From the NCBI GenBank assembly GCA_050951725.1, contig JBMNJO010000025.1:80394-144393 (forward strand): a DNA stretch of 64,000 nucleotides, given 5' to 3'. The stretch comes from Syntrophomonadales bacterium. Its GTDB lineage: Bacteria; Bacillota; Syntrophomonadia; Syntrophomonadales; DTU052. The position numbers were made by a program, and so were the translations under genes. How positions within the stretch are numbered: position 1 is the first letter of the stretch; each line of letters opens with the position of its first letter. Below the pieces are notes generated by a model. It had not been told where the DNA came from. It saw only the letters and a list, made by a program, of their open reading frames with translations, and made no database searches. This document shows, one piece after another, positions 8,076-54,829 of this stretch.

Positions 8076-8106
8076 AACATCTTAAAAAGGGAAAGGAGAA
8101 TTGATT

Positions 8107-9603
8107 GTGAGGACCAAACAGGAGTATATTGACGGACTTCGCAAAAAGAACCCCAACCTTTGGTTCAACGGGTCAAAACTGGACCGGCTCGATCCCATGC
8201 AGGAAGGGGCTATCAATGTCATGGGGCTCACCTTCGATGCCGCATTCGATCCGGATTTAAAAGACCTGTGTACTGCAACCTCGCACCTGACTGGAGAAAC
8301 CATCAACCGGTTCAACCATATCCACCAGAGCCCCGATGATCTCCACAAGAAGCAGGATATGACCCGCGCGTTATGCAATCAAGTGGGCACCTGTATTCAA
8401 AGGTGTATGGGAGTCGATGCTGCCAACGCTATCAATGCCGTTTCCTTCGAAGCAGCCAAGAACCCGAACAAGGCTACGGAATACCATCAGAACTTCCTCA
8501 AGTGGCTGGAATACTTCCAGACAAACGATCTGGTAGCGAGCTGTGCCCAGACTGATGTTAAAGGGGAAAGATTAAAAAGGCCCGCCCAACAGACAGACCC
8601 TGACCAGTACCTGCGGGTGGTAGAAAAGAAGAGTGACGGGATCGTGGTTCGGGGCTGTAAGGTCCATATTTCGGAGGCTTCTATATCCGACGAGATCCTG
8701 GTGGTACCCAACCGCGCTCTGATGAAAGACGAAACGGATTATGCCGTATGTTTTGCTGTTCCATCTGACCATCCGGAGATCAAGCAGGTAGTATCCTTCC
8801 ATAACCCAACCAAGAGAGATTATCTGAGAGGTCCGAAGAGAACTGGTTATACTGATTCCTACATTATATTTGATGACACCTTCATTCCCTGGGAGCGGGT
8901 ATTCCTGTGCGGTGAAGTGGATCATGGCGGAATAGCCGCTTTATTATTTGCCCTGTTCCACCGCCACAGCTATTCCGGCTGTAAACCTGCCTGCCTCGAC
9001 TTTATACTCGGCCTGGCGGCGGGTGCGGCTCACATCAACGGCATCGAAAAAACCCCACATGTCAGGGCCATGCTCTCTGAACTCATAATGACAGCCGAAT
9101 TGGGATACGCGGCTGGCTTTACCGCTTCTTCGTTGGGCAAACCTGAGGTTTATATACCTGGATACGGTCCGGTCCCCTATGGTCCCGGCAGCTATATCCC
9201 GAATTCCATTTACGCCAACGTAGGAAGGTGCCTGACGGGAGAAGCTGTTTTCCACGAGCAGGAGATCCTCTGTAATATCGCAGGGGGAATCCCGGCCACC
9301 TTCCCAACTGAGAAAGACCTGCTCAATCCAGAACTCAAACCCTTCCTGGAAAAGTATATCAACCGCAATCCCAAGATACCCGTAGAAGACCAGTGGAGAT
9401 TCTGGCTGCTGTTTGTTGATGCCACCACCTCACATTCCGCCGGTTCCGGAAACTACGGGAACTACCACGGCGGAGGCTCCCCAATTATGGAGCAGATTGC
9501 CATCACCAGCCAGTATGATATCAGGAAGAGAAGAGATACCGTCTACAAGATGGCTGGCATGTCGGTAGTTGCAGATAAAAATATCAAGGTAATGGGTGAG
9601 TAG
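8107..9603 (+). CDS. 4-hydroxybutyryl-CoA dehydratase / vinylacetyl-CoA isomerase family protein (AbfD-like), paralog 1
   Basis: The ORF is 8101..9603. CIQRCMG (C-x3-C) plus HRHSYSGCKP (H-x6-C) fit the AbfD [4Fe-4S] ligand pattern. Start GTG 8107 is chosen by alignment with paralog 2 (MRTKEQYI). Confidence 0.8.
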   Translation: MRTKQEYIDGLRKKNPNLWFNGSKLDRLDPMQEGAINVMGLTFDAAFDPDLKDLCTATSHLTGETINRFNHIHQSPDDLHKKQDMTRALCNQVGTCIQRCMGVDAANAINAVSFEAAKNPNKATEYHQNFLKWLEYFQTNDLVASCAQTDVKGERLKRPAQQTDPDQYLRVVEKKSDGIVVRGCKVHISEASISDEILVVPNRALMKDETDYAVCFAVPSDHPEIKQVVSFHNPTKRDYLRGPKRTGYTDSYIIFDDTFIPWERVFLCGEVDHGGIAALLFALFHRHSYSGCKPACLDFILGLAAGAAHINGIEKTPHVRAMLSELIMTAELGYAAGFTASSLGKPEVYIPGYGPVPYGPGSYIPNSIYANVGRCLTGEAVFHEQEILCNIAGGIPATFPTEKDLLNPELKPFLEKYINRNPKIPVEDQWRFWLLFVDATTSHSAGSGNYGNYHGGGSPIMEQIAITSQYDIRKRRDTVYKMAGMSVVADKNIKVMGE

Positions 9604-35727: not shown

Positions 35728-36005
35728 GGCCAAACTTCTTTACCTGAGGTTAAGAAGTACACCTGATTTATGTCAACAGGCACTTCTCAAGCAGATTCCG
35801 GGTTTGTCCAACACCCTATTACCGAGACCTTTCACAACAATTTCCTATGCTCTTACCGGCTTCAAAGGACCTGACTTGAAGGAGGTGGGTTGTTTTATCT
35901 TGCCTGGTTTCAAGGCTGTTACCCAGTGGTGATGCGGTACGCTACTCCGTATGGTCTGGACAAGATTCCGCTCAACGATTCCATTCATAGTTAGGAGGAT
36001 TGCCG

Positions 36006-37478
36006 ATGAGAACCAAAGAGCAATATATTGAAGACCTGAAGAAAAAGAACCCGAACCTCTATTATAACGGGAAAAAGATTGATCGCCTTGACCCCATGCA
36101 GCTTCCGGCGATCAATGTAATGGGGACGACCTTCGAGGCCGCTATGGATCCGGAATATAAGGACCTGTGTACAGCCACCTCCCATTTGACCGGAGAAACC
36201 ATCAACCGGTTCACTCATATCCACCAGAATATTGATGATCTGCATAAGAAACAGGATATGACGAGAAAACTGGGCAATCTGGTGGGGGGATGTATCCAAA
36301 GATGTATGGGAACTGACGCCGCCAATGCTATCAACTGTGTATCCTTTGAAGCCAGTAAAAACCCGGATCGGAAAACCGACTATCATGCCAACTTCCTCAA
36401 GTGGCTGGAATACTTCCAGAAGAACGACCTGGTCGGCAGTTGTGCTCAAACCGACCAAAAAGGTGAGAGGCTAAAAAGGCCCTCCCAGCAGACCGACCCG
36501 GATATGTATCTCCATGTCGTATCGGAGAATGCTGATGGCATAGTGGTGCGGGGCTGCAAGGTCCACATCTCCGAGGCTTCGATTTCAGATGAAATCTTAG
36601 TAGTGCCTAACCGCGCACTACTGCCGGAGGAAAAGCAATACGCAGTCTGCTTTGCCATACCCTCCGACCATCCTCAGATTAAACAGGTTGTGAGCTTCCA
36701 TAACTACTTCCAACGAGAGGTGTATCATAAAGGCTTTATCGGCGGTTATACGGATTCCTACATCATCTTCGAAGACACCTTTGTTCCCTGGGAGAGGGTC
36801 TTCCTGTGCGGGGAAACCCAGCATGGTGGTATAGCAGCCCTGTTATTCGCTCTTTTCCATCGTCACAGCTATTCCGGGTGTAAACCGGCTACCCTCGACT
36901 ACATTATTGGGATGGCCAGCCTGGCTGCCGAAATCAATGGGATTGAGAAAACCCCGCATTTTAGAGCCAAGCTGTCCGAACTTATCCTGACTGGTGAACT
37001 GGGCTATGCTGCTGGTTTTACCTCTTCACACCTGGGTTCACCTCAGGTTTATATGCCCGGGAAGGGATTGGTTCCGTATGGACCCGGCAGTTATATCCCC
37101 CATTCCATTTATGCCAATGTAGGGAGATGCCTGACCGGAGAAGCAGTATTCCGTGAACAGGAAATACTGTGCAACATCGCTGGTGGATTGCCAGCCACCT
37201 TCCCGTATGAAAGAGACTTTACCAACCCGGAAACCAAGGACCTCCTGGAGAAGTACCTCAAACGCAATCCCCGGATGCCGATTGACGATCAGATCAAGTT
37301 CTGGTACCAATTCATCGATTTTACCTGTTCTCATTCGGCCGGGTCCAAGGGCTATGGACAATACCATGGCGGAGGGTCGCCGATTATGGAACAGATCGCG
37401 ATAACCTCACAATATGACGTCAAGTCAAGGAAAGAAAACGTCAGAAGACTGGCTGGCATGAGGCCTTCGGAAGGATAA
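36006..37478 (+). CDS. 4-hydroxybutyryl-CoA dehydratase family protein (AbfD-like), paralog 2
   Basis: It is collinear with 8107..9603 and highly similar by eye along the full length. It has the same CIQRCMG and HRHSYSGCKP motifs. The SD is AGGAGG at 35992-35997. Confidence 0.8.
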   Translation: MRTKEQYIEDLKKKNPNLYYNGKKIDRLDPMQLPAINVMGTTFEAAMDPEYKDLCTATSHLTGETINRFTHIHQNIDDLHKKQDMTRKLGNLVGGCIQRCMGTDAANAINCVSFEASKNPDRKTDYHANFLKWLEYFQKNDLVGSCAQTDQKGERLKRPSQQTDPDMYLHVVSENADGIVVRGCKVHISEASISDEILVVPNRALLPEEKQYAVCFAIPSDHPQIKQVVSFHNYFQREVYHKGFIGGYTDSYIIFEDTFVPWERVFLCGETQHGGIAALLFALFHRHSYSGCKPATLDYIIGMASLAAEINGIEKTPHFRAKLSELILTGELGYAAGFTSSHLGSPQVYMPGKGLVPYGPGSYIPHSIYANVGRCLTGEAVFREQEILCNIAGGLPATFPYERDFTNPETKDLLEKYLKRNPRMPIDDQIKFWYQFIDFTCSHSAGSKGYGQYHGGGSPIMEQIAITSQYDVKSRKENVRRLAGMRPSEG

Positions 37479-39427: not shown

Positions 39428-39466
39428 AAATCAAGCCAAGTCGGGGTTTACGACTTGGCTTGATTT
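39428..39466. terminator. 16-bp hairpin terminator after rbr
   Basis: AAATCAAGCCAAGTCG-gggttta-CGACTTGGCTTGATTT. Confidence 0.8.
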
Positions 39467-39493: not shown

Positions 39494-39717
39494 CTAGATA
39501 GTTGGTGAAAAAGTCCGTTTGCTTCCCGGGTCCTCATTGGCAACACCAACTGCTTATCTCGGACTCCAAGCAGCACCCCGTCAAATCGGCATCCATGCCT
39601 CAGAGACTTATCTCGCGACCTCCTGTCGCTCGGCTGCTTTCCGCCCTCGATTTCGCAGGGTGTTGCTCAATTCGGACCCAACGGTCGCCGCACTGGACTT
39701 TTTCACAACATATCTAG
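39494..39717. mobile_element. MITE-like 224-bp element with about 23-bp terminal inverted repeats
   Basis: The left end is CTAGATAGTTGGTGAAAAAGTCC. The reverse complement of the right end is CTAGATATGTTGTGAAAAAGTCC. The interior is an imperfect long palindrome centred near GGCATCCATGCC, and there is no credible ORF. Confidence 0.55.
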
Positions 39718-41048: not shown

Positions 41049-41159
41049 TTCCTTCCCTTCCGATCCAGCATAATTTTGGCAACACCCTATAGCGAATAGT
41101 CTAAGACATTTTGGGCTTGGGTGCAAAAGGGACCGTATAAATGCAAAGGATAGTGAGGC

Positions 41160-42429
41160 TTATACATAGACCATTCCCTCTAATTTGTAAATTGGATCAA
41201 CGTCCACTGAAGTCAGTTTACTTAAATTTCGCCACACTGCATAGGCGGCAACAATGCTGTCTATTCCGTCTCCATCTTTGTCTCCTATCAGCATCGGGCC
41301 CAATTCTATTGGAATATGCACTGCTCTTTCCCGTAATCCCTCCAATAGCCTTTTTCGATTATCTTTATGTACTTGTTTGTTGCCCTTATATTCATTGTAT
41401 AGGTTTAGATCCTTTAGAGTTGAAGCGGGACATATTTCAATAACTATGGATTTTTTAGGAGCCGGCATCTGCATGGGTAAAACCCTTGCCAAGTCGTCCC
41501 GTATAAGCGGAAACAGTACTTTAGAAATGCCATTGTAGGTTTGCTTGTACAATTTAAGGTTCCATGGACACCACGGGGTTTTTGTTATCTTATCGGTTTG
41601 ACGTTTAACCTCAGGATGGCCAAACAGTTTCATCGAAAATTCACTATATGTATTTCTAAACGAATCTGCATCGCCAAATTTAGCAGCATAATTTGCAACA
41701 TATTTTTCCCAGGTGTTTTCTTTTATAACACTTTTGGGGTTGGAAAATGGAAAATCTATTCCGACCAAAGCATTCGATTGTTTCGCAATTAAACTAACTA
41801 AGAATGCCATGCTGGGATCAAGTTCCTGGGTACCACCTGGCATGTCACAAAGGCGTTCGCAACTATTGATTGTTAGTACTCCGTTGCCGGGCGATGCAAT
41901 CGTGATACAAATATGTTTTCCCGCTTCTTTTGACCCACTAAAATCGATTCCAATTATTGTGGGTATTATTTTTGCGTTTTCCAGGTTTGGTTTGTATACG
42001 GGAGTATCGATGCCGGGAGGTGGGAGGGGAAGTGCGAATGGCTTTCTTTTAAAACCAGCCATGATATATTGCTTATATGCCCATGTAGCGATGTCGTAAG
42101 CCGATTCCAACTGGGCTGCCGCACTAATCCATGTCCCGGATTTTTCATGAACGGCTGCATTACCCGCATCCCTGATTGAATGAAAACTCCTTTTTATTTT
42201 TCTTGGTAGTTTAGAGTGCTTATCCAAAAGCGAGAGCATTTCATACAGGTTTGGCGTTTCCGGTTCGGAGAGATCTTCCTCATTTAAGATGAACTTTGCG
42301 AGTTGTTCTGCAAACATTCTCAGATATACTAAATGCTGAGACCGGATTTGTGTATAATGTTTTCTCTGCTTCTTTTCCTAAGGAGGCCAAATATGGACAA
42401 TCGTCGTTAAGAAACGAAAAATTACTCAT
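41160..42429 (-). pseudogene. DUF4145-like N-terminal domain fused to an RNase-H-fold DUF429-like domain, with a 1-nt frameshift
   Basis: ORFs 42280..42555 (MSNFSFLNDDCPYLASLGKEAEKTLYTNPVSA) and 41160..42317 join as SA-LVYLRMFAEQLAKFIL if one T of the TTT run (plus-strand AAA at 42331-42333) is removed. The C-terminal part has IIGIDFSGSKEAG, LVGIDFPF and DGIDSIVAAYAV. Confidence 0.55.
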
Positions 42430-42850
42430 CGACACCCACCTTTCCTTAAGACTCCATGTATCTAATATCGTGACGCGACTCCTGTGTTTATAATTTTCTA
42501 CAACCATGTTACATATTGTAAATAGTTTATTTATTATTGCTTTCCTTGCCAACATAATTTGGGTATAAATATTTTTCTGCGTCTTGACATGGTGATGTCA
42601 CTTAGTCATGAAACAATCAGCGTAAAATGCAGAACTAACGTTTAAAGTGCTATTAATTTTCCACTATGGACTTTAGAGGAGTGACTGGCACAAATGTACA
42701 ATTAAGGAAAGGAGGCTAGTTTTACAAAGTTCTCAAAGCTGTTTTTTCAATACTACTTACATCCACGAAGTGACAGGTGTGATTTATGGAAGCAGTCAGA
42801 ATTCAATAAAAAATACACTTTTAGCTTTCACAGAAGGGTGATTAGTCATT

Positions 42851-44086
42851 ATGCCGCAACCGGTTCAGATTGGCTGGATCGATTTGGGAAGCCGTGATAA
42901 GAATAGGATACTGTCAGTGCTCAGCCTGCTCTATGCCGCTGAAGCGGTAGATGAGTTGGGAATCGGTGTAATTCGTGACGGTTTTGCCGACGTATTATTT
43001 CCGGGGACTTCAACCGTACAGACGAGAGCCAAATATTTTCTCATCGTGCCCTACACATTGATGGAACTGGAACGCGAGAGGAACCTCACTCCCAGGGCTC
43101 TGCTTGATCGTCTCGCCAAGGAAGAAATAGCTCTGATAAGCCAGTTGAAGAAAGGAAACGCCGAAGGTGTAATCGGTGGACGCTCCGGAGAACGGCTTCA
43201 GAAAAAACCCTCCAGTATCTACTGGAATGGTCTTTATACTTACGGTATCTTCCGCAGCCCAGTCAGGTTATCACTGGATGAGTATGCACACGCAGTCTGC
43301 GCATTGAATCGAACCAAAGCCAGGATAACGTCAGCGGGACACGCAGACCGCGGAGAAGGCACTGATGACACAGGCATTAGTTCCGGTAGTATCGGCACCT
43401 TCTGGCGGGCTCCGATACCTCCACCCGACTGGCGCGAAAGGGTGACAGTTGATCTTACCAAGGATGAAGCGCAATTCCTGCGCGACAAGATCATTAGTTC
43501 CGAGCACTCCAAAAACACACTGCTGGCCTTCGTACTCCGCAGCAATAGCTACGAAGTGAAGGACTATGACGATATATCAATGATAAAAGGGATCGTAAAC
43601 CTTCCTGAGGATATCAGGAGCGATTACGAAATGGCCGTACGTTTCTCGGAATTCATATATGGCGCAAATATCCGCTACAACATTATTCTGTCCAACGGCG
43701 AAAATGAGGATGCCAACGAAGCCTGGGATGAATGGTATGAACGAGTGACTGCCGGCTTTATTCAGAACTACAATGTATCTGAGCCGTTTGTCCGTTTATC
43801 AGTCAGCGGGCGCAACCGGGTACGGATATATCCTTTTGTAAAACAGTGGAAGCAGGCAGTTTTAGATGGTGACGTTTCTGCAATGGACGACCTTATAATA
43901 AAGCGCGAAATCCAACTCAAGGGCAAGGAACGGGCCAAATTGAAGAATCCCGGGGTCTATCGATGGAGAGAAGGTGTATGGCTGGGGGGAGGAAAACTTC
44001 AGTATCGGTTCCGCAACGCCCGCCGACTGATCGCTGATATTGTCAACGGGTTGGAGGGTGGTGATAGCGATGTTCAGGCTAACTGA
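42851..44086 (+). CDS. unknown-function protein, first gene of the three-gene operon (DUF6361-like by recollection)
   Basis: 411 aa with the N-terminal GWIDLGSRDKNRIL...DELGIGVIRDGFADVLFPGTSTVQTRAKYFLIVPY. It has no catalytic motif. It overlaps the next gene by 17 nt. Confidence 0.75.
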   Translation: MPQPVQIGWIDLGSRDKNRILSVLSLLYAAEAVDELGIGVIRDGFADVLFPGTSTVQTRAKYFLIVPYTLMELERERNLTPRALLDRLAKEEIALISQLKKGNAEGVIGGRSGERLQKKPSSIYWNGLYTYGIFRSPVRLSLDEYAHAVCALNRTKARITSAGHADRGEGTDDTGISSGSIGTFWRAPIPPPDWRERVTVDLTKDEAQFLRDKIISSEHSKNTLLAFVLRSNSYEVKDYDDISMIKGIVNLPEDIRSDYEMAVRFSEFIYGANIRYNIILSNGENEDANEAWDEWYERVTAGFIQNYNVSEPFVRLSVSGRNRVRIYPFVKQWKQAVLDGDVSAMDDLIIKREIQLKGKERAKLKNPGVYRWREGVWLGGGKLQYRFRNARRLIADIVNGLEGGDSDVQAN

Positions 44087-45857
44087 GGACAGACTGGACT
44101 ATGGAAAGGCTTTGGCTCCACCTCCGGGATTCAGGTGCGAATTTGCCGTAGGAACGACCTATTCACTCGATCTGGAAACCCTCTTGGGCGTGCCGATTGC
44201 CCTTTTCCTCTCTGAACAAATGGATAGCACCCTCCTGGAAAACCCTTTACTTATTCTTGAAGGTGTTCGCAAAAGTGCGGAAAACTTTGCATTGTTTTGC
44301 GAGGGTGGACAGATCAAGGTTCCGAGCAAAGGGAATCCCATTTTTGCCCTGTTGGAAAGCAGTGTGTTTCAGGTTGCACTGAAGAATGGCAAGTCGTTTC
44401 ACCCGAAGGTCTGGATCATAAAATATATTAACGAAAAGGGTCTGCCACTCTATCGATTTGTGATACTCAGCCGCAACCTCACCTTTGATCGCAGTTGGGA
44501 CGTTGCCGTCGTCTTGGAAGGCGAATCCGCTGCAAGATCAACAGGTAAAACCAAGCCCCTGATTGATTTTCTCCAATACCTGCGTCAACTGATTACCGAT
44601 GCCAAAAAGAAACGGCGGATTGCTGCGCTGATAAACGAACTACCCTACGTTAATTTTCAGACCGGTGACCGGCATTTTGTAGATTTTGATTTCTTACCGC
44701 TGGGTATTGGTAACGGCTACGATAAGGAGTCGGCGGGTCTGTTTACCACGTATCATGACTTGCTTGTGATTTCACCGTTTTTGAGCCAGAGTACTGTTCT
44801 TGAAATGAATGGCCTCTCGCTCTCCAATTCCCAAAAAACACTCATTACCCGTCGAACGGAAATCTCCAAGCTGACTAATGACCTGTTGCAAAGCTTTCCG
44901 TGCTATTGCCTGAAGGAGATGGTGATTGACGGGGAAGAGGCTCTCAGCGAACCGGATACTATCGCTGATCTCCAGAAACAGGACATACATGCCAAGCTTT
45001 ATTTTAGGAGTAAAAATACCGAGCACGTATTGTATGTTGGTTCAGCCAACTGTTCAAGCAGCGCCTGGAACGGCAATGTTGAGTTTATTCTGCGCTTGAA
45101 GTATGAAAAATGGGGATTTCGTGTTTCCCAAATCATTGACGAGCTATTCAATCGAAACGGCCAGGAAGATGATCGGCACAATCCGTTCGAGCGAATTGAG
45201 GCCGTACCGCCGATAGAGGTTACAGAAGACGATGTACAGCAGAAGCTTGAAAAAGCTATTAAGCGGCTCTGTCAATCTCGCTCAAAAGCGTCGGTTACTG
45301 CCAGTACCGGCGGGTACGATGTGGCAATTGAGTTCGATAAAGCCTTTATGGCGCAAGACATTGAGCTGAAAATTGCTTCTCTCGGGGGCGGTACTCCTGC
45401 CCCAATTGAGCCGATCACGGTTCTTACCGGTTTATCACTGTTGCAGCTGGGTGAGTTTTACGTGGTAACAGCAAGACTGGGTGAAGACTATTTGGAGCGC
45501 ATTATTAAGATTCATACTGAAGGGATTCCGCCTGAAAGGGATAACGCAGTCTATAAACATCTGATAAAGGATCGTAATACATTCCTGCGCTATATTGCCT
45601 TTATACTGGCTGACGATTATTTGCTGACGTCTTTGGAGCAATTTGAATATAAGGACATAGGAGTAAAAAGCCTGAACCTTCAGAGTTACACAATGCCGGT
45701 TATCTACGAAAACATGCTGCGGGCAGCCGCCCAATCTCCCGAAAGACTGCAGGAAATCGATTTGCTTATCAAGCGATTGGATAGCAACGAGATCGTCCCT
45801 CCGGAGTTCCAGGTACTTTTTTCAACATTTCTCAGGGCGAGCAGGAGGATTAATTAA
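44070..45857 (+). CDS. phospholipase-D-superfamily protein with a single HKD motif (Nuc/BfiI-like putative nuclease)
   Basis: ATG 44070 follows the SD GGAGGGTGG. The motif HAKLYFRSKNTEHVLYVGSANCSSSAW (HxK...GSxN) lies at about 44988-45070. The N-terminus has GTTYSLDL. Confidence 0.8.
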   Translation: MFRLTEDRLDYGKALAPPPGFRCEFAVGTTYSLDLETLLGVPIALFLSEQMDSTLLENPLLILEGVRKSAENFALFCEGGQIKVPSKGNPIFALLESSVFQVALKNGKSFHPKVWIIKYINEKGLPLYRFVILSRNLTFDRSWDVAVVLEGESAARSTGKTKPLIDFLQYLRQLITDAKKKRRIAALINELPYVNFQTGDRHFVDFDFLPLGIGNGYDKESAGLFTTYHDLLVISPFLSQSTVLEMNGLSLSNSQKTLITRRTEISKLTNDLLQSFPCYCLKEMVIDGEEALSEPDTIADLQKQDIHAKLYFRSKNTEHVLYVGSANCSSSAWNGNVEFILRLKYEKWGFRVSQIIDELFNRNGQEDDRHNPFERIEAVPPIEVTEDDVQQKLEKAIKRLCQSRSKASVTASTGGYDVAIEFDKAFMAQDIELKIASLGGGTPAPIEPITVLTGLSLLQLGEFYVVTARLGEDYLERIIKIHTEGIPPERDNAVYKHLIKDRNTFLRYIAFILADDYLLTSLEQFEYKDIGVKSLNLQSYTMPVIYENMLRAAAQSPERLQEIDLLIKRLDSNEIVPPEFQVLFSTFLRASRRIN

Positions 45858-48800
45858 TGAGCGATTTAGCTGTCAGGGAAAGACAGATCCTCTCCGGATT
45901 GAAAGATTTTCAGAGGGCGACCGTGGAACGGATTTTTACACTGCTAACCAGTGGCCGTAACCGCGTACTGGTCGCCGATGAGGTTGGACTTGGCAAGACT
46001 CTGATTGCCAGAGGGGTAATTGCAAAAACCGCCTTGTACCACCAGCAGTCTCTCCGTGATAACCTGTTCAAGGTAGTCTATGTCTGTTCCAACCAGAGCA
46101 TAGCTGGACAGAATCTTGCTCGGCTCAGGATACAGAACACTGATAGAATCGAAAGTCTTACCGATACCAGGTTGTCCATGCAGCATCTGAAGATATTCGA
46201 GGACGAAATAACTGCTGTGGAACGTAATAGCTATTTGCAACTCATTCCTTTGACTCCCGGCACATCATTCAACATTACCGGCAGCAGCGGGAGCGTGCAG
46301 GAACGCGCCTTGATTTTCGCCATTTTGAGCCGGCATAAAGAACTGGCCGGTTACCGTCAGGCCTTGGAATTACTGATGATGGGTAACGCTGAAAAAAGTT
46401 GGAGGACATGGGTGAGGGACTTGTATGAAAAACGGGTTCGCGATTGTGAGCGAGCCAGTGATGGCAGGTACCTGCAAACAGTTTTGACAAACATTGACCG
46501 TTACTTTGAGACCGATGACGACCTGCTTCCTGATTTGCTTGATCTCTGCAAACGAATAACCTCTCTTAGGAAAAAGCAGGATGATTCCAATCAGATGATA
46601 TACCGTCTGCGCCGGATGATGGCCGAGATAAGTGTTGGTTTGATTGACGCTGATTTGGTGATAATGGATGAGTTCCAACGCTTCCCCGAGTTAATCAGAA
46701 CAGATACGGATGATGAAGCCGCCATGCTGGCCCGGCGATTTTTCAACGCCGACAAGCGTGACAATCAGAAGGTTAAAGTCCTGCTACTCTCCGCCACTCC
46801 TTACAAGCTATACTCAACGTTGGAAGAGATCAATGAAAGTGGCATTGACGAACACTACCGTGAATTTATGCAGGTTATTGATTTTCTTTTCGAAAGTAAC
46901 CCCACTCTGAAACAACAATTTCGCCAGGTGTGGAGCAATTATTCGGTTTCCCTGAGAGAACTGGAAACTCAGGAAATTACAATCCTGTCCGCGAGGAAGA
47001 ATCAGGCGGAAAATGCCTTATACCAGGGAATCTGCAGGACGGAGCGTTTGTCGGTTCCAGGAGCGGAGAAGCTGGTTGATATAGAAACCGCCAAATGCGC
47101 TTTGGAGATTTCGGAAAAGGATGTTTTGTCCTATATGGAAGCTTATCAACTGCTCCAGGAGCTAGGTCTTAACGAATATGTGCCGGTTGAGTACGTCAAA
47201 TCGGCTCCGTATATATTCTCGTTTATGGAACACTACAAGCTTAAAACCAAGGTGTTCGATTATTTTAAGAAGAATCCCAACCGAATATCGGCCGCCCGCA
47301 AGCCTGAATTATGGATAAATGAAAATCTGATAGCCCGGTATGAAAAGCTGCCTGATACCAACGCCCGTCTAAAGAGTCTGAAGGAAGAGGCTTTGCCTCC
47401 TGGAGCGGAGCACCTGATTTGGATTCCTCCATCGAAAACGTACTATGAACCGGGGGGACCATATTCAAAGATAAAGGACTTTTCCAAGATTCTTGTGTTT
47501 TCATCATGGGAAATGGTTCCGCGCGCCATCGCAGCTGTACTATCGTATGAAGCTGAGCGGTTAACCGTGGGAAAACTGGTTAGAAAAACTGACAATCCCA
47601 AAGGGGAAAACCGCAGCTATTTTCCGCCGCGGAAAAAGGTGCGATTTCCGGCACCGCGCCTTAAATTCACCGTACGTGATGGTCAGCCGGTCAATATGAA
47701 TCTGATGGGGTTACTCTATCCCTGTGTGACCCTGGCTAGGCTGTACAATCCGATTGATTGCCTGAATGCCAAGTTTACACGAAGAGAGATCGAAGCACAA
47801 CTACGCAGCAGAATTGAAAAGATGTTGGAAGCCATAACGTTTAAACCGAAACACGACGAGATAGGCCATGATGAAAGATGGTATTCGGTTGCCCCGGTTC
47901 TTTTTGACCGGAATGAGGCAACGATAAGAGAATGGTTAAACGGCGGGGAGTACATTTGGAACCCCAAAACTGATGAATCCGAGGGGAACGAGCCCGAGGA
48001 CGATAACAACGCTCTGGATCAGCATTTTGCCGCCCTGAATTGCATACTCGATGATGCGGATAATCTCGTCCTGGGGCGAAAACCTCGCGATCTAGTGGAT
48101 GTTTTGGTCGCAATGGCCATGGCTTCACCTGCGGTGTGTGCAATGCGGCTGTTCGGAACGGAGCAGGAGAATTCGCCGCGGTTATCTGTACGCTTGGCCA
48201 AAACCCTCATCAACCGTTTTAATTCACAGGAAGCAACGTCCATTGTTGAGCTGTGCTACGGAGACAAAGACCCTCATTGGAAGAGCGTACTTCGTTACTG
48301 TGTCGATGGTAATCTGCAGGCGGTGCTCGATGAATATGCCCACATGCTTGTTGATGACAATGGACTTTGGCATGTCGACCGAAATAAAAGATCAGAAGTG
48401 CTGTGTGAGCGAATGAATACAGCTTTTACAACCCATACCGCCAGCTACAACGTTGACACCTATCGTAAATTTCGGGAGCGCATGAAGAAAGCGAAGACCC
48501 ATGGCAGCGGGCGCCAACAGGATGAGCCCAGATTTATTAAGATGCGGTCCGGTTATGCCGCCGGCTTTTACGACATGAAGGGAGCGGACAAGGGCCTTCA
48601 ACGCAAGGAAAGTCTGAGGCTGGCATTTAATTCGCCATTTCGTCCGTTTGTTCTGGCAACCACCTCTATTGGTCAAGAAGGGCTGGATTTTCATTTCTAC
48701 TGTCGCAAGATCGTGCATTGGAATCTGCCCTCCAATCCCATAGACTTGGAACAGCGGGAGGGACGCATCAATCGGTACAAATGTCTGGCTATCCGGCAGA

Positions 48801-49159
48801 ACATAGCCAAAAAATACGGAAATATGCGTTTTAAGGAGGATATCTGGCGTGAGATGTTTGAGCAAGCCAACCGGGATGAGAAAAATAACGATTGTCCCGA
48901 ACTGGTACCCTTCTGGTGCTTGCCCGGCGATACATCGGTTAAGATTGAACGGATAGTACCCATGTATCCTCTGAGCAAAGATCAAGTAAAATATGACCGG
49001 TTGATCAAGATACTCTCCCTCTACCGCCTGAGCCTGGGACAGGCCCGGCAGGAGGAACTGCTTGAATATGTATTGAGCATTGATATGGACAAGGAGCAGA
49101 TCCGAAAACTGTTTATCAATCTAAGTCCGTGGGTTAGGGAACGGAACGGATCCAGCTAA
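45857..49159 (+). CDS. SF2 helicase, SNF2/RapA-like, 1100 aa with a large insertion and a C-terminal extension
   Basis: It has motif I ADEVGLGKTLIA, motif II MDEFQRF, motif III LLLSATPYK and motifs V/VI TTSIGQEGLDFH...QREGRINRY. Its start overlaps the upstream stop (TAATG). Confidence 0.9.
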   Translation: MSDLAVRERQILSGLKDFQRATVERIFTLLTSGRNRVLVADEVGLGKTLIARGVIAKTALYHQQSLRDNLFKVVYVCSNQSIAGQNLARLRIQNTDRIESLTDTRLSMQHLKIFEDEITAVERNSYLQLIPLTPGTSFNITGSSGSVQERALIFAILSRHKELAGYRQALELLMMGNAEKSWRTWVRDLYEKRVRDCERASDGRYLQTVLTNIDRYFETDDDLLPDLLDLCKRITSLRKKQDDSNQMIYRLRRMMAEISVGLIDADLVIMDEFQRFPELIRTDTDDEAAMLARRFFNADKRDNQKVKVLLLSATPYKLYSTLEEINESGIDEHYREFMQVIDFLFESNPTLKQQFRQVWSNYSVSLRELETQEITILSARKNQAENALYQGICRTERLSVPGAEKLVDIETAKCALEISEKDVLSYMEAYQLLQELGLNEYVPVEYVKSAPYIFSFMEHYKLKTKVFDYFKKNPNRISAARKPELWINENLIARYEKLPDTNARLKSLKEEALPPGAEHLIWIPPSKTYYEPGGPYSKIKDFSKILVFSSWEMVPRAIAAVLSYEAERLTVGKLVRKTDNPKGENRSYFPPRKKVRFPAPRLKFTVRDGQPVNMNLMGLLYPCVTLARLYNPIDCLNAKFTRREIEAQLRSRIEKMLEAITFKPKHDEIGHDERWYSVAPVLFDRNEATIREWLNGGEYIWNPKTDESEGNEPEDDNNALDQHFAALNCILDDADNLVLGRKPRDLVDVLVAMAMASPAVCAMRLFGTEQENSPRLSVRLAKTLINRFNSQEATSIVELCYGDKDPHWKSVLRYCVDGNLQAVLDEYAHMLVDDNGLWHVDRNKRSEVLCERMNTAFTTHTASYNVDTYRKFRERMKKAKTHGSGRQQDEPRFIKMRSGYAAGFYDMKGADKGLQRKESLRLAFNSPFRPFVLATTSIGQEGLDFHFYCRKIVHWNLPSNPIDLEQREGRINRYKCLAIRQNIAKKYGNMRFKEDIWREMFEQANRDEKNNDCPELVPFWCLPGDTSVKIERIVPMYPLSKDQVKYDRLIKILSLYRLSLGQARQEELLEYVLSIDMDKEQIRKLFINLSPWVRERNGSS

Positions 49160-52556: not shown

Positions 52557-53016
52557 GCCTGCCCAAAAACTTACCCGCCATATGTTCTTATCTATATTGA
52601 ACTCTGATTCCCCTGCGAAAACCTCAAACTTACGAGTTATTACTTTTCACAGGGAAATCAACTTTGCAAACAAGGAACTAACATCATGCAAATGGAATCC
52701 TAACAAACGAAACCTTAAAAACACACCAAACCCCCGTTAGACCTGGGTTTTCCACAATCTTACATTCCCGAAATTTGCATACAAATCAAACACACCGCAA
52801 ACGTTTCCCAAACAATGCCCATGTTATGCTCGGGGTGCGACCCGCTGAACCGACAAAGGTGGTGGTCCCTGATGGTATTAGGTGCGGCGTTTCTTGCCCC
52901 AGGGTTACGACCGGCAGGTGCCAAATGAAGAGGGGCATCTGTTTGAAGGACCCGCTTGCAGGGGAAGAGACGTCGGGATAGTGGAGGCGGATGCCGGCAT
53001 AAAGGAGGGAACGAAG

Positions 53017-53982
53017 CTGCTTAACTATTTTAACGAGATGACTGCCTTTTACGAGCAAGACTGGCCCAACAGGCTCAACAGTTCATCAAGCATGCTGTAT
53101 ATGCTCCTGCTCCATATGGGCAACAAGCTGTTTTGGGAAGAGGGGTTCGAGGTCTCCAGCAAGGTGCTGCGCGCGAAGGCCGGGATCAGTGACCGTAAGA
53201 CCCTGGACCGGGCGCGGGCTTTGTTGGTGGAAAAGGGACTCATACTGTATACCCCGACTCAACCGGCCAAAGGGCTGGGCAAATATACCATTGTGGGATT
53301 GGCATCCCCAAAGGGCGGACCCCGCCGCCGGATGCCTAACTCGGGAAAGGATGATCACTGCCGATCAAGTCATGAATCCTGTGATGAGGCTGCACCGGAT
53401 CTGGAAAACACAGACACCTCAGCAGTAGGGCCGAACCCGGGGGACAAATCCCCGTATAGTTACCCGGGGGCGGAGGCGGGAGATGTGCTGTGGAATAAAT
53501 CCCCGGTGGTGAGTCTTTATCCCGGGAATAATTCCCCGCACGGTGACCGGACTAATGCCCCAAAACCCCGATTTGGCGTGGGTTCCAGGCCGTCCATAAA
53601 AAAACAAAACTATAAACATACTAAACACTCGTCTGCTAACGCAAACGAGACCAGTGACGATTCTGTAAGCAGCCGGGAGTTGATCAGGGAACTGGTACAG
53701 AACTTCCGGAGCATTGAAGGGATTACGTCCGCGAAAGGGGATTACCCGTTTATTGGCTGCCTGTACAATGAGTTTGGTTTCGAGGGGGTCCTTTCAGCCA
53801 TCCATGAGTTGGCAATGGCTGCCGCAACAGCCAAGATTGAGAAACCCTTGATCTACCTCAAGTCAATTCTCGTGAAACGAAGATCCGGATTTTATGGGAC
53901 AGGTTTTATTTCCTATGCTGCACAGTTGAGAGAGGAGGTTGATCCGGTTGAACGTTACCGATATGACAGATATGAAGGTTGA
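53017..53982 (+). CDS. DnaD-domain / phage replisome-organizer-like replication protein
   Basis: The ORF is open from 52882. It has an N-terminal winged-helix-like LYMLLLHMGNKLF...AGISDRKTLDRARALLVEKGLILY and a C-terminal DnaD-like FIGCLYNEFGFEGVLSAIHE. The start is uncertain: CTG 53017 lies 7 nt after the SD AAAGGAGGG, or ATG 53038. Confidence 0.6.
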   Translation: MLNYFNEMTAFYEQDWPNRLNSSSSMLYMLLLHMGNKLFWEEGFEVSSKVLRAKAGISDRKTLDRARALLVEKGLILYTPTQPAKGLGKYTIVGLASPKGGPRRRMPNSGKDDHCRSSHESCDEAAPDLENTDTSAVGPNPGDKSPYSYPGAEAGDVLWNKSPVVSLYPGNNSPHGDRTNAPKPRFGVGSRPSIKKQNYKHTKHSSANANETSDDSVSSRELIRELVQNFRSIEGITSAKGDYPFIGCLYNEFGFEGVLSAIHELAMAAATAKIEKPLIYLKSILVKRRSGFYGTGFISYAAQLREEVDPVERYRYDRYEG

Positions 53983-54829
53983 AAACGGCCTGATTGACAC
54001 CTGGAATTTTGATGATAAAGGACAGGTACATGATTCGGGACCCGAGGCACTGCCTGAGCTTCCTCCCGATTATGAGTTGGTTCGTCAGTACATAAGATGC
54101 TGCCCGGATTGCGGCCGGGAGATTCGTGAGCGTACCTCCATCAGTCCGGAAAGGATTTTGATCATGGAAAGGTCGCGCTGCCGGTGTGCTCCAGAGCCTG
54201 TGGAGGATGAGCTGGAACGGGTGGCCAGGAAGCAGAAGGAACTGGACCGGTTTTTCGGCGATTTGAACCTGGCGAAATCACCAGGGCCGGATCTTGCTGA
54301 GTTAGCGCCCCGCCACGGGCAGGAGGAGGCTCAAAAGATGGCGCAAGTATTTCTGGAGTCGAGTGTCACGGGTAAGAGCCTGCTGCTGAACGGACCTCCC
54401 GGACGCGGCAAGACAGAGGTGGCCCTGGCCATGGCCCGTTCTGCCAGCGCCGACCGGACAGTAGTCTGTATCAAGTCCATCGACCTGCTGGACCGTATCC
54501 GGCGCTCACTCTGGCAGGAGGATAAAAAGATTGAGCTGCTAGGAATCCTGCGCACTGTAAACCTGCTGATTATCGACGATATCGGGGTGGAGAAGGCCAC
54601 TGAATGGGTACTGGCTACCCTCTATGCCATCATCGACCATCGTTATGGCCACCGGGATACGGTGTTCACCACCAATCTGACAGGGAAGGAGATGAGTTCC
54701 CGCCTCGGTCCGGCCTTAACCTCCCGTATCTACGGTTCGCGGGTGGTAACCTTGGCCGGTCCGGACTGGCGAATCAGAAGCCGCCAGCGGATCTCGGCGG
54801 AATGGACCCGGGACGAGGACAAGTGGTGA
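53939..54829 (+). CDS. DnaC/IstB-like AAA+ helicase loader
   Basis: It has Walker A NGPPGRGKTEVA and Walker B LLIIDDIG, plus an N-terminal CCPDCG...CRC zinc-ribbon-like motif. The start is uncertain. Confidence 0.8.
   Translation: MIRLNVTDMTDMKVENGLIDTWNFDDKGQVHDSGPEALPELPPDYELVRQYIRCCPDCGREIRERTSISPERILIMERSRCRCAPEPVEDELERVARKQKELDRFFGDLNLAKSPGPDLAELAPRHGQEEAQKMAQVFLESSVTGKSLLLNGPPGRGKTEVALAMARSASADRTVVCIKSIDLLDRIRRSLWQEDKKIELLGILRTVNLLIIDDIGVEKATEWVLATLYAIIDHRYGHRDTVFTTNLTGKEMSSRLGPALTSRIYGSRVVTLAGPDWRIRSRQRISAEWTRDEDKW

What the first reader, a model, noticed from the sequence alone, without database searches (positions are those of the whole stretch)
42851..49159. Three-gene operon (unknown protein, single-HKD PLD nuclease, 1100-aa SNF2-like helicase): candidate undescribed anti-phage defence system
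Three plus-strand genes are translationally coupled. Gene A's stop (44084-44086) lies 17 nt inside gene B, which starts at ATG 44070. The stop of B and the start of C share TAATG at 45855-45859. A (411 aa) has no catalytic motif but has a distinctive N-terminus (DELGIGVIRDGFADVLFPGTSTVQTRAKYFLIVPY), which I recall, without certainty, as the DUF6361 signature. B has one HxK...GSxN PLD motif, the arrangement used by dimeric PLD nucleases such as Nuc and BfiI. C has all the SF2/SNF2-type motifs (GLGKT, DEFQ, SAT, QREGRINRY), an unassigned insertion of about 500 aa and a C-terminal extension. Nuclease plus helicase plus an unknown specificity protein is the typical logic of defence systems. No methyltransferase, DrmA/DrmB, BREX or Dnd genes are present. 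It therefore does not fit DISARM (SNF2 + PLD + DrmAB + methylase), Mokosh (SF1 RNA helicase + PLD) or the Dpd DpdJ/K pair as I remember them. The neighbourhood is accessory in character: a MITE, a DUF4145 gene, an HD hydrolase, a decayed macro-domain gene, and visibly more AT-rich sequence around 41.1-42.9 kb.
Basis: partly seen in the sequence, partly recalled or inferred. Interest (0 to 1): 0.9.

Follow-up and report, generated by a model that had tools for sequence, protein, structure and literature searches.

The report
Azaca (ZacABC) anti-phage defence operon
The three-gene operon is real and intact, but it is an ordinary copy of Azaca, a bacterial anti-phage system named in 2022 whose three proteins together cut phage DNA, so it is not an undescribed system.

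Summary
Three tightly coupled plus-strand genes lie at 42851-49159 (411, 595 and 1100 aa), with the stated overlaps and motifs. PADLOC assigns the trio, full length, to ZacA (3.7e-100), ZacB (4.1e-153) and ZacC (E=0, 1070 bits), which is the Azaca system attributed to Millman et al. 2022.

The same A-B-C order occurs in 72 of the 73 genome loci that extend past ZacB. These include Bacillus massilioanorexius, which I take to be the source of the studied BmAzaca (48/48/54% identity). A 2025 preprint shows BmAzaca and KpAzaca block phage T4. It also shows purified ZacABC preferentially degrades T4 DNA, and needs all three proteins, the PLD active site and the ZacC Walker A motif.

The window copy, from a Syntrophomonadales MAG, keeps every catalytic residue and is under purifying selection.

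- ZacB has two invariant HxK...N motifs and a Tdp1-like two-lobed fold, so it is not a single-HKD Nuc/BfiI-type dimer.
- The macro-domain gene is intact.
- The frameshifted gene is the DUF4145 neighbour.

ZacA's role and fold remain unexplained. Low interest; already known.

The parts
42851..44086 (+). zacA: 411-aa DUF6361 protein, the accessory subunit of Azaca. All-alpha predicted fold. The invariant N-terminal block is D34-E35-x-G37...R42-D43...F50-P-G-T-S-T55...T58-R-A-K-Y-F63.
   Evidence: PADLOC ZacA 3.7e-100, residues 6-402 on profile 4-395 of 396. Pfam DUF6361 6.4e-33. At least 1252 homologues. AF2 pLDDT 82.7, pTM 0.81. No structural match in PDB or BFVD.
44070..45857 (+). zacB: 595-aa PLD-superfamily nuclease. 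The two-lobed catalytic core spans about residues 20-370 and carries two HxK...N motifs (H111/K113/N136 and H307/K309/N327). An extra C-terminal domain spans about 375-595.
   Evidence: PADLOC ZacB 4.1e-153, residues 1-592 on profile 1-582 of 586. Both motifs are invariant in 73- and 89-sequence alignments. AF2 pLDDT 86.2. Foldseek top hits are Tdp1, PLD3 and PssA, E 6e-9 over about 420-430 columns.
45857..49159 (+). zacC: 1100-aa SF2 helicase/translocase, SNF2/DrmD-like in its second RecA lobe. Motifs: Walker A G44-L-G-K47-T48, motif II D271-E-F-Q274, motif III S312-A-T314, motif V Q940-E-G-L-D944, motif VI Q966-R-E-G-R-I-N-R973.
   Evidence: PADLOC ZacC E=0, 1069.9 bits, residues 7-1092 on profile 5-1017 of 1019. 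Only local RecA2 matches to DrmD, DpdE, BrxH and RapA. Motifs are invariant in the family.
42556..42850 (+). AT-rich upstream region that presumably holds the operon promoter. An RBS-like AGAAGGGTGA precedes ATG 42851.
   Evidence: Sequence read. Only weak sigma-70-like matches, no more than in shuffles, so no promoter was shown. GC 0.38.

Best explanation
This is a canonical, intact Azaca (ZacABC) anti-phage system in a Syntrophomonadales (Pelotomaculum-like) metagenome-assembled genome. By homology with the studied Bacillus (BmAzaca) and KpAzaca operons, the three co-translated proteins form one complex. In that complex ZacC, an SF2 ATPase, uses ATP to engage or translocate on double-stranded DNA and licenses ZacB, a two-lobed PLD/Tdp1-like phosphodiesterase, to cut invading phage DNA at many degenerate sites. 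ZacA (DUF6361) is an obligatory third subunit of unknown role. In the studied homologues the preferred target is T4-type hypermodified (glucosyl-hydroxymethylcytosine) DNA, so the system behaves like an ATP-dependent, modification-dependent (type IV-like) restriction complex with no methyltransferase. Shown here: family membership, operon architecture, conservation of the catalytic residues, the two-lobed ZacB fold, and purifying selection. Shown by others for homologues: defence against T4, T4-DNA cleavage, and the requirement for all three subunits, the PLD site and the Walker A motif. Inferred: that this copy does the same, that ZacC translocates, that modification is the cue, and which phages of this anaerobe are targeted.
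For: Full-length PADLOC matches to ZacA, ZacB and ZacC, and Pfam DUF6361. In the genome scan, 214 stretches in a collection with one genome per species encoded a ZacA relative and 80 loci were kept. ZacB follows ZacA in 79 of 80, and ZacC follows in 72 of the 73 loci that extend past ZacB, always on the same strand and in the same order. The B. massilioanorexius locus L009 is colinear at 48/48/54% identity. Cronobacter plasmid pESA3 carries the same trio, annotated DUF6361 / phospholipase D family / helicase-related. The literature describes Azaca as helicase + PLD + DUF6361. It reports more than 1e6-fold protection against T4, preferential T4 dsDNA cleavage by purified ZacABC, a requirement for all three subunits, dead PLD and Walker A mutants, and a degenerate 5' A|NT cut site. 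The window copy has no deviation at any catalytic position, and dN/dS against the nearest lineage is 0.11-0.22. ZacB is two-lobed by motif conservation and by fold match to Tdp1 and PLD3. Relatives sit in defence islands: a type III R-M system next to Azaca in L002 and a type IV PLD-helicase enzyme in L009.
Against: No experiment exists for this copy or for any member of its clade (48-54% identity to BmAzaca), so its target range could differ. In this genome the operon sits among metabolic genes rather than in an obvious defence island. The modification cue is only suggested by the preprint, not demonstrated. Mutating conserved ZacA residues had no effect in vitro, so the role of ZacA is unexplained. 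No promoter or terminator was identified.
Confidence: 0.93

Rival explanations
1. One reading: an undescribed defence system that only resembles known PLD-helicase systems.
For: NCBI annotates the exact proteins only as DUF6361 family or hypothetical. NCBIfam has no full-length model for them, and Pfam sees only weak PLD and helicase fragments.
Against: Dedicated ZacA, ZacB and ZacC models match end to end at 1e-100 to 0. The operon is colinear with the B. massilioanorexius Azaca locus. The literature describes exactly this composition.
Confidence: 0.01
2. The family is right but the specificity differs. This Desulfotomaculia-type clade recognises a cue other than T4-like glucosyl-hmC DNA, for example another base modification, a replication intermediate, or plasmid DNA.
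For: Identity to the tested system is only 48-54%. The host is a strict anaerobe whose phages are unknown. The ZacB C-terminal domain and much of ZacA and the ZacC insertions are variable. Azaca occurs across many phyla and on plasmids. The cue is not established even for BmAzaca.
Against: Both tested operons (Bm and Kp) share the T4 / T-even phenotype, which suggests a conserved specificity. All catalytic and most structural invariants are kept.
Confidence: 0.25
3. A housekeeping DNA-repair or remodelling module: a Tdp1-like phosphodiesterase plus an SNF2-like ATPase that removes DNA adducts, not an immune system.
For: The ZacB fold is closest to Tdp1. The second RecA lobe of ZacC resembles RapA/SNF2. 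The neighbours in this genome are metabolic.
Against: Homologous operons give more than 1e6-fold phage protection and degrade phage DNA. The distribution is patchy across phyla and includes plasmids next to a recombinase. The flanks differ in every genome. Relatives lie beside R-M systems.
Confidence: 0.02
4. A decaying, non-functional remnant of Azaca.
For: The adjacent DUF4145 gene is frameshifted in this window. One relative, L080, has a truncated ZacB and no ZacC.
Against: All three ORFs are full length, every family-invariant catalytic residue is kept, only four mostly conservative substitutions occur at near-invariant sites, and dN/dS is 0.11-0.22. Six independent contigs are 99.5-99.99% identical with intact genes.
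Confidence: 0.04

Closest known systems
Azaca (ZacABC), attributed to Millman et al. 2022; BmAzaca and KpAzaca studied in bioRxiv 10.1101/2025.07.10.664194
   Same: Same three families, same order, same tight coupling, same catalytic residues, and full-length profile matches. 48/48/54% identity to the B. massilioanorexius operon.
   Different: Different host lineage (anaerobic Syntrophomonadales MAG) and no experimental data. In this genome it is not embedded in an obvious defence island.
DISARM (DrmA, DrmB, DrmC PLD, DrmD/DrmE, methyltransferase)
   Same: Combines a PLD-family protein with an SNF2-like helicase. The second RecA lobe of ZacC matches DrmD locally.
   Different: Matches are local only: residues 915-975, 62.8 bits against a 610-bit cutoff. 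There is no DrmA, DrmB or methyltransferase in the 17 kb scanned around the operon. ZacA has no DISARM counterpart.
Mokosh (SF1 RNA helicase + PLD nuclease)
   Same: PLD nuclease plus helicase logic.
   Different: ZacC is SF2, not a Upf1-like SF1 helicase. No Mko models matched. Mokosh II cleaved only ssDNA in vitro, whereas Azaca cleaves T4 dsDNA.
Single-chain PLD-helicase type IV restriction enzymes (PADLOC mREase_IV; NCBIfam NF042964)
   Same: Methyltransferase-free PLD plus SF2 helicase acting on modified DNA. One sits 2 kb from Azaca in B. massilioanorexius.
   Different: Only short local similarity: 34.7 bits against a 1100-bit cutoff. Azaca is split into three genes and needs ZacA.
Tyrosyl-DNA phosphodiesterase 1 (Tdp1) and PLD3/PLD4 exonucleases
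   Same: A two-lobed PLD fold in one chain with two HxK...N motifs. This is the best structural match for ZacB.
   Different: 11-14% identity. ZacB has an extra domain of about 220 aa at the C-terminus and works only with ZacA and ZacC. This is a fold relationship, not orthology.

Membership tests
Azaca | ZacA: DUF6361 protein of about 400 aa | tested here: met
   PADLOC ZacA 3.7e-100, covering 392 of 396 profile positions. Pfam PF19888 114.7 bits against a 25-bit cutoff.
Azaca | ZacB: PLD-family nuclease of about 590 aa with conserved HxK active-site residues | tested here: met
   PADLOC ZacB 4.1e-153, profile 1-582 of 586. H111/K113/N136 and H307/K309/N327 are invariant. PLD fold confirmed.
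Azaca | ZacC: SF2 helicase of about 1000-1100 aa with Walker A and B motifs | tested here: met
   PADLOC ZacC E=0, 1069.9 bits, profile 5-1017 of 1019. GLGKT and DEFQ are invariant.
Azaca | The three genes are adjacent, co-oriented, and in the order A-B-C | tested here: met
   Overlaps of 17 nt and 1 nt. The same order holds in 72 of the 73 loci that extend past ZacB and on plasmid pESA3.
Azaca | Confers phage resistance; the complex cleaves phage DNA | not testable with these tools
   Shown only for BmAzaca and KpAzaca. Inferred here by homology.
DISARM | DrmA + DrmB (DUF1998) core plus a methyltransferase, with DrmC/DrmD accessory genes | tested here: not met
   There are only local RecA2 hits to DrmD and DrmA models, and an E=0.0093 DrmC hit. 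None of the nine large ORFs checked between 37.6 and 54.8 kb gives a full-length match to a DISARM or methyltransferase model; the only Drm hit is a weak local DrmD match at E 4.5e-05 on the IstB-like ATPase.
Mokosh | Upf1-like SF1 RNA helicase (COG1112) with a PLD nuclease | tested here: not met
   No Mko model appears among the PADLOC hits at E<=0.01. The ZacC motifs are of SF2/SNF2 type.
Single-HKD dimeric PLD nucleases (Nuc, NucT, BfiI) | One HKD motif per chain, with the active site formed across a homodimer | tested here: not met
   ZacB has two invariant HxK...N motifs. Its model aligns over both lobes of Tdp1 and PLD3. NucT and BfiI match only the C-terminal lobe, and weakly.

The most novel reading that the evidence does not exclude
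The system itself is known, but two things remain open. First, ZacA has a confidently predicted all-alpha fold with no detectable relative among solved or viral structures, and it is essential for cleavage although its conserved residues are dispensable in vitro. It, or the ZacB C-terminal domain, could be a new kind of sensor for hypermodified DNA. Second, this divergent anaerobe clade could recognise a different cue from the T4-type modification.
Probability: 0.25. Interest if true: 0.4.

Novelty: already known. Interest (0 to 1): 0.1.

Why it matters
It matters little as a discovery. Standard defence-system annotation (PADLOC) would label this operon Azaca, and the exact proteins are already in public databases. 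It does show that first-stage flags of the form 'nuclease + helicase + unknown' need a PADLOC or DefenseFinder pass before being called novel. Three by-products are useful. ZacB is a two-lobed, Tdp1-like PLD enzyme, so both H111 and H307 should be mutated in functional tests, and homodimerisation need not be invoked. ZacA has no recognisable fold relative. Azaca moves as a self-contained three-gene cassette into unrelated contexts across at least six phylum-level lineages named in the record titles, and onto plasmids.

Tried and rejected

(2) A solved Azaca structure. None is in the PDB by sequence for any subunit.

(3) The original Millman preprint text does not contain the word Azaca, and its figures and tables are not held. 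Attribution therefore rests on later papers. That 'Bm' stands for B. massilioanorexius is my recollection, consistent with the ZacABC operon found in L009.

(4) DUF4145 as a fourth Azaca gene: rejected. It is absent next to Azaca in the other genome loci and in the closest lineage, L001.

(5) The island-boundary test using an exact lookup of the macro protein failed because the called start differs from the longest ORF.

(6) MITE. No long inverted repeat lies next to the operon. The only candidate is a 224-bp element with 23-nt terminal inverted repeats 3 kb upstream. It is single-copy in the window and was not verified.

(7) Promoter and terminator scans gave nothing above the shuffled expectation.

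Full report
**Observation.** The window has three long plus-strand ORFs at 42851-44086 (411 aa), 44040/44070-45857 (595 aa from ATG 44070) and 45857-49159 (1100 aa). The stop of the first gene lies 17 nt inside the second. The second stop and the third start share TAATG at 45855-45859. GGAGG-type ribosome-binding sites sit about 8-10 nt before the B and C starts.

**Identity.** Against PADLOC-DB the three proteins match ZacA (3.7e-100, 6-402 on profile 4-395 of 396), ZacB (4.1e-153, 1-592 on profile 1-582 of 586) and ZacC (E=0, 1069.9 bits, 7-1092 on profile 5-1017 of 1019).
- All other PADLOC hits (DrmD, DrmA, DpdE, BrxH, PDC-M27C) are local matches to the second RecA lobe at residues 915-980.
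- Pfam confirms DUF6361 for A (6.4e-33) and sees only sub-threshold PLD and helicase fragments in B and C.
- NCBIfam has no full-length model. This explains why the exact proteins are annotated only as 'DUF6361 family protein' and 'hypothetical protein' in a Syntrophomonadales MAG (MGI6551468-70).
- The literature describes Azaca as 'helicase, PLD nuclease, and DUF6361' and attributes it to Millman et al. 2022.

**Conservation of the trio.**
- ZacA has at least 1252 homologues in the protein collection.
- In a collection with one genome per species, 214 stretches encoded a ZacA relative, and 80 loci were kept.
- A tblastn of ZacB and ZacC against these loci found ZacB directly after ZacA in 79 of 80. 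The exception is a contig that ends inside ZacA.
- ZacC directly follows ZacB in 72 of the 73 loci that extend past ZacB, always on the same strand. The single exception, L080, has a truncated ZacB followed by a 406-aa ORF on the opposite strand.
- Hosts span Bacillota (Desulfotomaculia, Bacilli, Clostridia), Cloacimonadota, Bacteroidales, Sumerlaeota, Desulfatiglans and Riflebacteria.
- Locus L009 is Bacillus massilioanorexius, which I recall as the source of the validated 'BmAzaca'. It is colinear with the window at 48, 48 and 54% identity.
- ZacA relatives also occur on 48 plasmids. Cronobacter pESA3 carries DUF6361 / phospholipase D family / helicase-related genes in the same order next to a tyrosine recombinase.
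- Apart from a partial match in the closest lineage (L001) and two macro-domain hits, none of the window's flanking genes accompanies Azaca in the other genome loci. The three genes therefore travel as a self-contained cassette.

**Integrity of this copy.** In family alignments of 79, 73 and 61 sequences the window keeps all catalytic residues. It differs from near-invariant positions only at R118K (ZacA) and at K89R, G143S and P528T (ZacC). dN/dS against the nearest lineage (L001, 94-95% identity) is 0.11 for zacA and 0.22 for zacB. Six independent metagenomic contigs carry the operon at 99.5-99.99% identity with intact genes.

**Mechanism.** What is known comes from bioRxiv 10.1101/2025.07.10.664194:
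- BmAzaca and KpAzaca defend E. coli against T4, by more than 1e6-fold, and against related T-even phages.
- Purified BmAzaca preferentially degrades T4 dsDNA from 10 nM, cutting throughout the genome at a degenerate 5' A|NT motif.
- All three subunits are required.
- PLD active-site mutants and the ZacC Walker A mutant are inactive.
- Mutating conserved ZacA residues affects neither complex formation nor cleavage.
- The authors suggest that glucosyl-hydroxymethylcytosine is the cue.

By homology, I infer that the window operon encodes an ATP-dependent, methyltransferase-free complex that destroys phage DNA and is probably modification-dependent. ZacC would be the motor and licensing subunit, and ZacB the nuclease.

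My own analysis adds two points.
- ZacB is not a single-HKD protein. Two HxK...N motifs (F110-H-P-K113...R135-N136 and H307-A-K309...G324-S-x-N327) are invariant. A confident AF2 model (pLDDT 86.2, pTM 0.88) aligns over about 420-430 columns with the two-lobed enzymes Tdp1, PLD3 and phosphatidylserine synthase (E down to 6e-9). Sequence profiles, by contrast, touch only the C-lobe of NucT and BfiI. One chain should therefore form one complete active site, followed by an extra C-terminal domain (about 375-595) of unknown role.
- ZacA models confidently (pLDDT 82.7, pTM 0.81) as an all-alpha protein with a disordered but motif-bearing N-terminus (invariant G8-W9-x-D11). It has no detectable structural relative in the PDB or BFVD.

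No Azaca component has a solved structure in the PDB by sequence.

**Context.**
- Upstream lie genes for a GDPD, a rubrerythrin, a rubredoxin/Fe-S protein, a small weak-HD protein and a DUF4145 protein.
- Downstream lie an intact macro-domain gene, an acyl-CoA dehydrogenase, two unknowns and an IstB-like ATPase.
- PADLOC sees nothing there except an N-terminal similarity of the DUF4145 protein to PDC-M16A and type I REase models.
- The AT-rich stretch (GC 0.38-0.43) covers that DUF4145 gene and the ZacA upstream region. Azaca itself has background GC.
- The 'accessory neighbourhood' argument is therefore weak for this genome.
- Relatives do sit in defence islands. In Pelotomaculum propionicicum (L002), Azaca follows a type III R-M system, a PD-(D/E)XK nuclease and a NucS-like candidate. 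In B. massilioanorexius (L009), a PLD-helicase type IV enzyme lies 2 kb downstream.

**Comparison and verdict.** All testable defining features of Azaca are met. The defining features of DISARM, Mokosh and single-HKD nucleases were tested and not met. The finding is a correct observation of a real defence operon, but the system is already named, is included in standard annotation tools, and is partly characterised biochemically. Novelty: already known. Interest: low (0.1). What remains open applies to the whole family rather than to this locus: what ZacA does, and what cue is sensed.

Noticed in passing
window 41160-42555 (- strand); indel at 42334: The DUF4145 gene next to Azaca is frameshifted here, leaving fragments at 42280-42555 and 41160-42317. 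An extra T at 42334 is absent from near-identical contigs L081 and L086, where the gene is 464 and 422 aa. The gene is AT-rich and appears absent from the closest lineage, L001, where no match to it was found and only about 450 bp separate the HD-like gene from zacA. The full-length N-terminus resembles PADLOC PDC-M16A (2.8e-22) and type I REase N-termini. It may be a separate, decaying defence-related gene, or the indel may be an assembly error.
   Followed up: partly
It gives a full-length Macro match (8.9e-43, profile 1-118 of 118), has an RBS AAGGGAGGG before ATG 49405, and is called as 169 aa in the five near-identical contigs that cover it fully. Macro genes also lie within a few kb of Azaca in L079 (48% identity) and L072, which is possibly chance.
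   Followed up: partly
window 39494-39717: A 224-bp element bounded by 23-nt inverted repeats (87% complementary) lies between the rubrerythrin and rubredoxin genes. A perfect 16-nt hairpin sits just upstream at 39428-39466. It is single-copy in the window, and its copy number elsewhere was not checked.
   Followed up: no
window 8094-9017 and 35993-36916: Two stretches 27.9 kb apart are 72-78% identical over about 900 nt. The second lies in an HpaB/HpaB_N-family gene (Pfam hits via L081). They are probably paralogous metabolic genes and unrelated to the finding.
   Followed up: no
window 52882-54829 (+): An overlapping gene pair: a 362-366-aa protein with no Pfam or PADLOC hit, followed by an IstB-like AAA+ ATPase (293-296 aa). 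It could be a replication-loader pair or an IS21-type remnant. This was not resolved.
   Followed up: no
L080 11196-14144: A degraded Azaca in a Clostridiales MAG. ZacB is truncated (the match ends at query residue 499), a 406-aa ORF lies on the opposite strand where ZacC should start, and no ZacC is found before the contig ends. This is the only exception to A-B-C synteny.
   Followed up: partly
L002 1470-9864 and 17196-18227; L009 18199-20640: In Pelotomaculum propionicicum, Azaca lies directly downstream of a type III R-M system (Mod 1.2e-219, Res 5.7e-285), a PD-(D/E)XK nuclease and a NucS-like/PDC-S11 protein, and upstream of an IIGP/LeoA-like GTPase. In B. massilioanorexius, a PLD+helicase type IV restriction enzyme lies 2 kb downstream.
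   Followed up: yes
window 42851-42946 (ZacA residues 1-32): The ZacA N-terminus is predicted disordered (pLDDT 27-38) yet carries the invariant residues G8, W9 and D11 (GWID motif). It could be a docking peptide for ZacB or ZacC. This was not tested.
   Followed up: no
window 41106-41270: Twenty-five substitutions and two 1-bp indels relative to contig L081 are clustered at the boundary between the 3' end of the DUF4145 gene and the HD-like gene, while the rest of the 20 kb is about 99.5% identical. This suggests a local recombination tract between strains.
   Followed up: no
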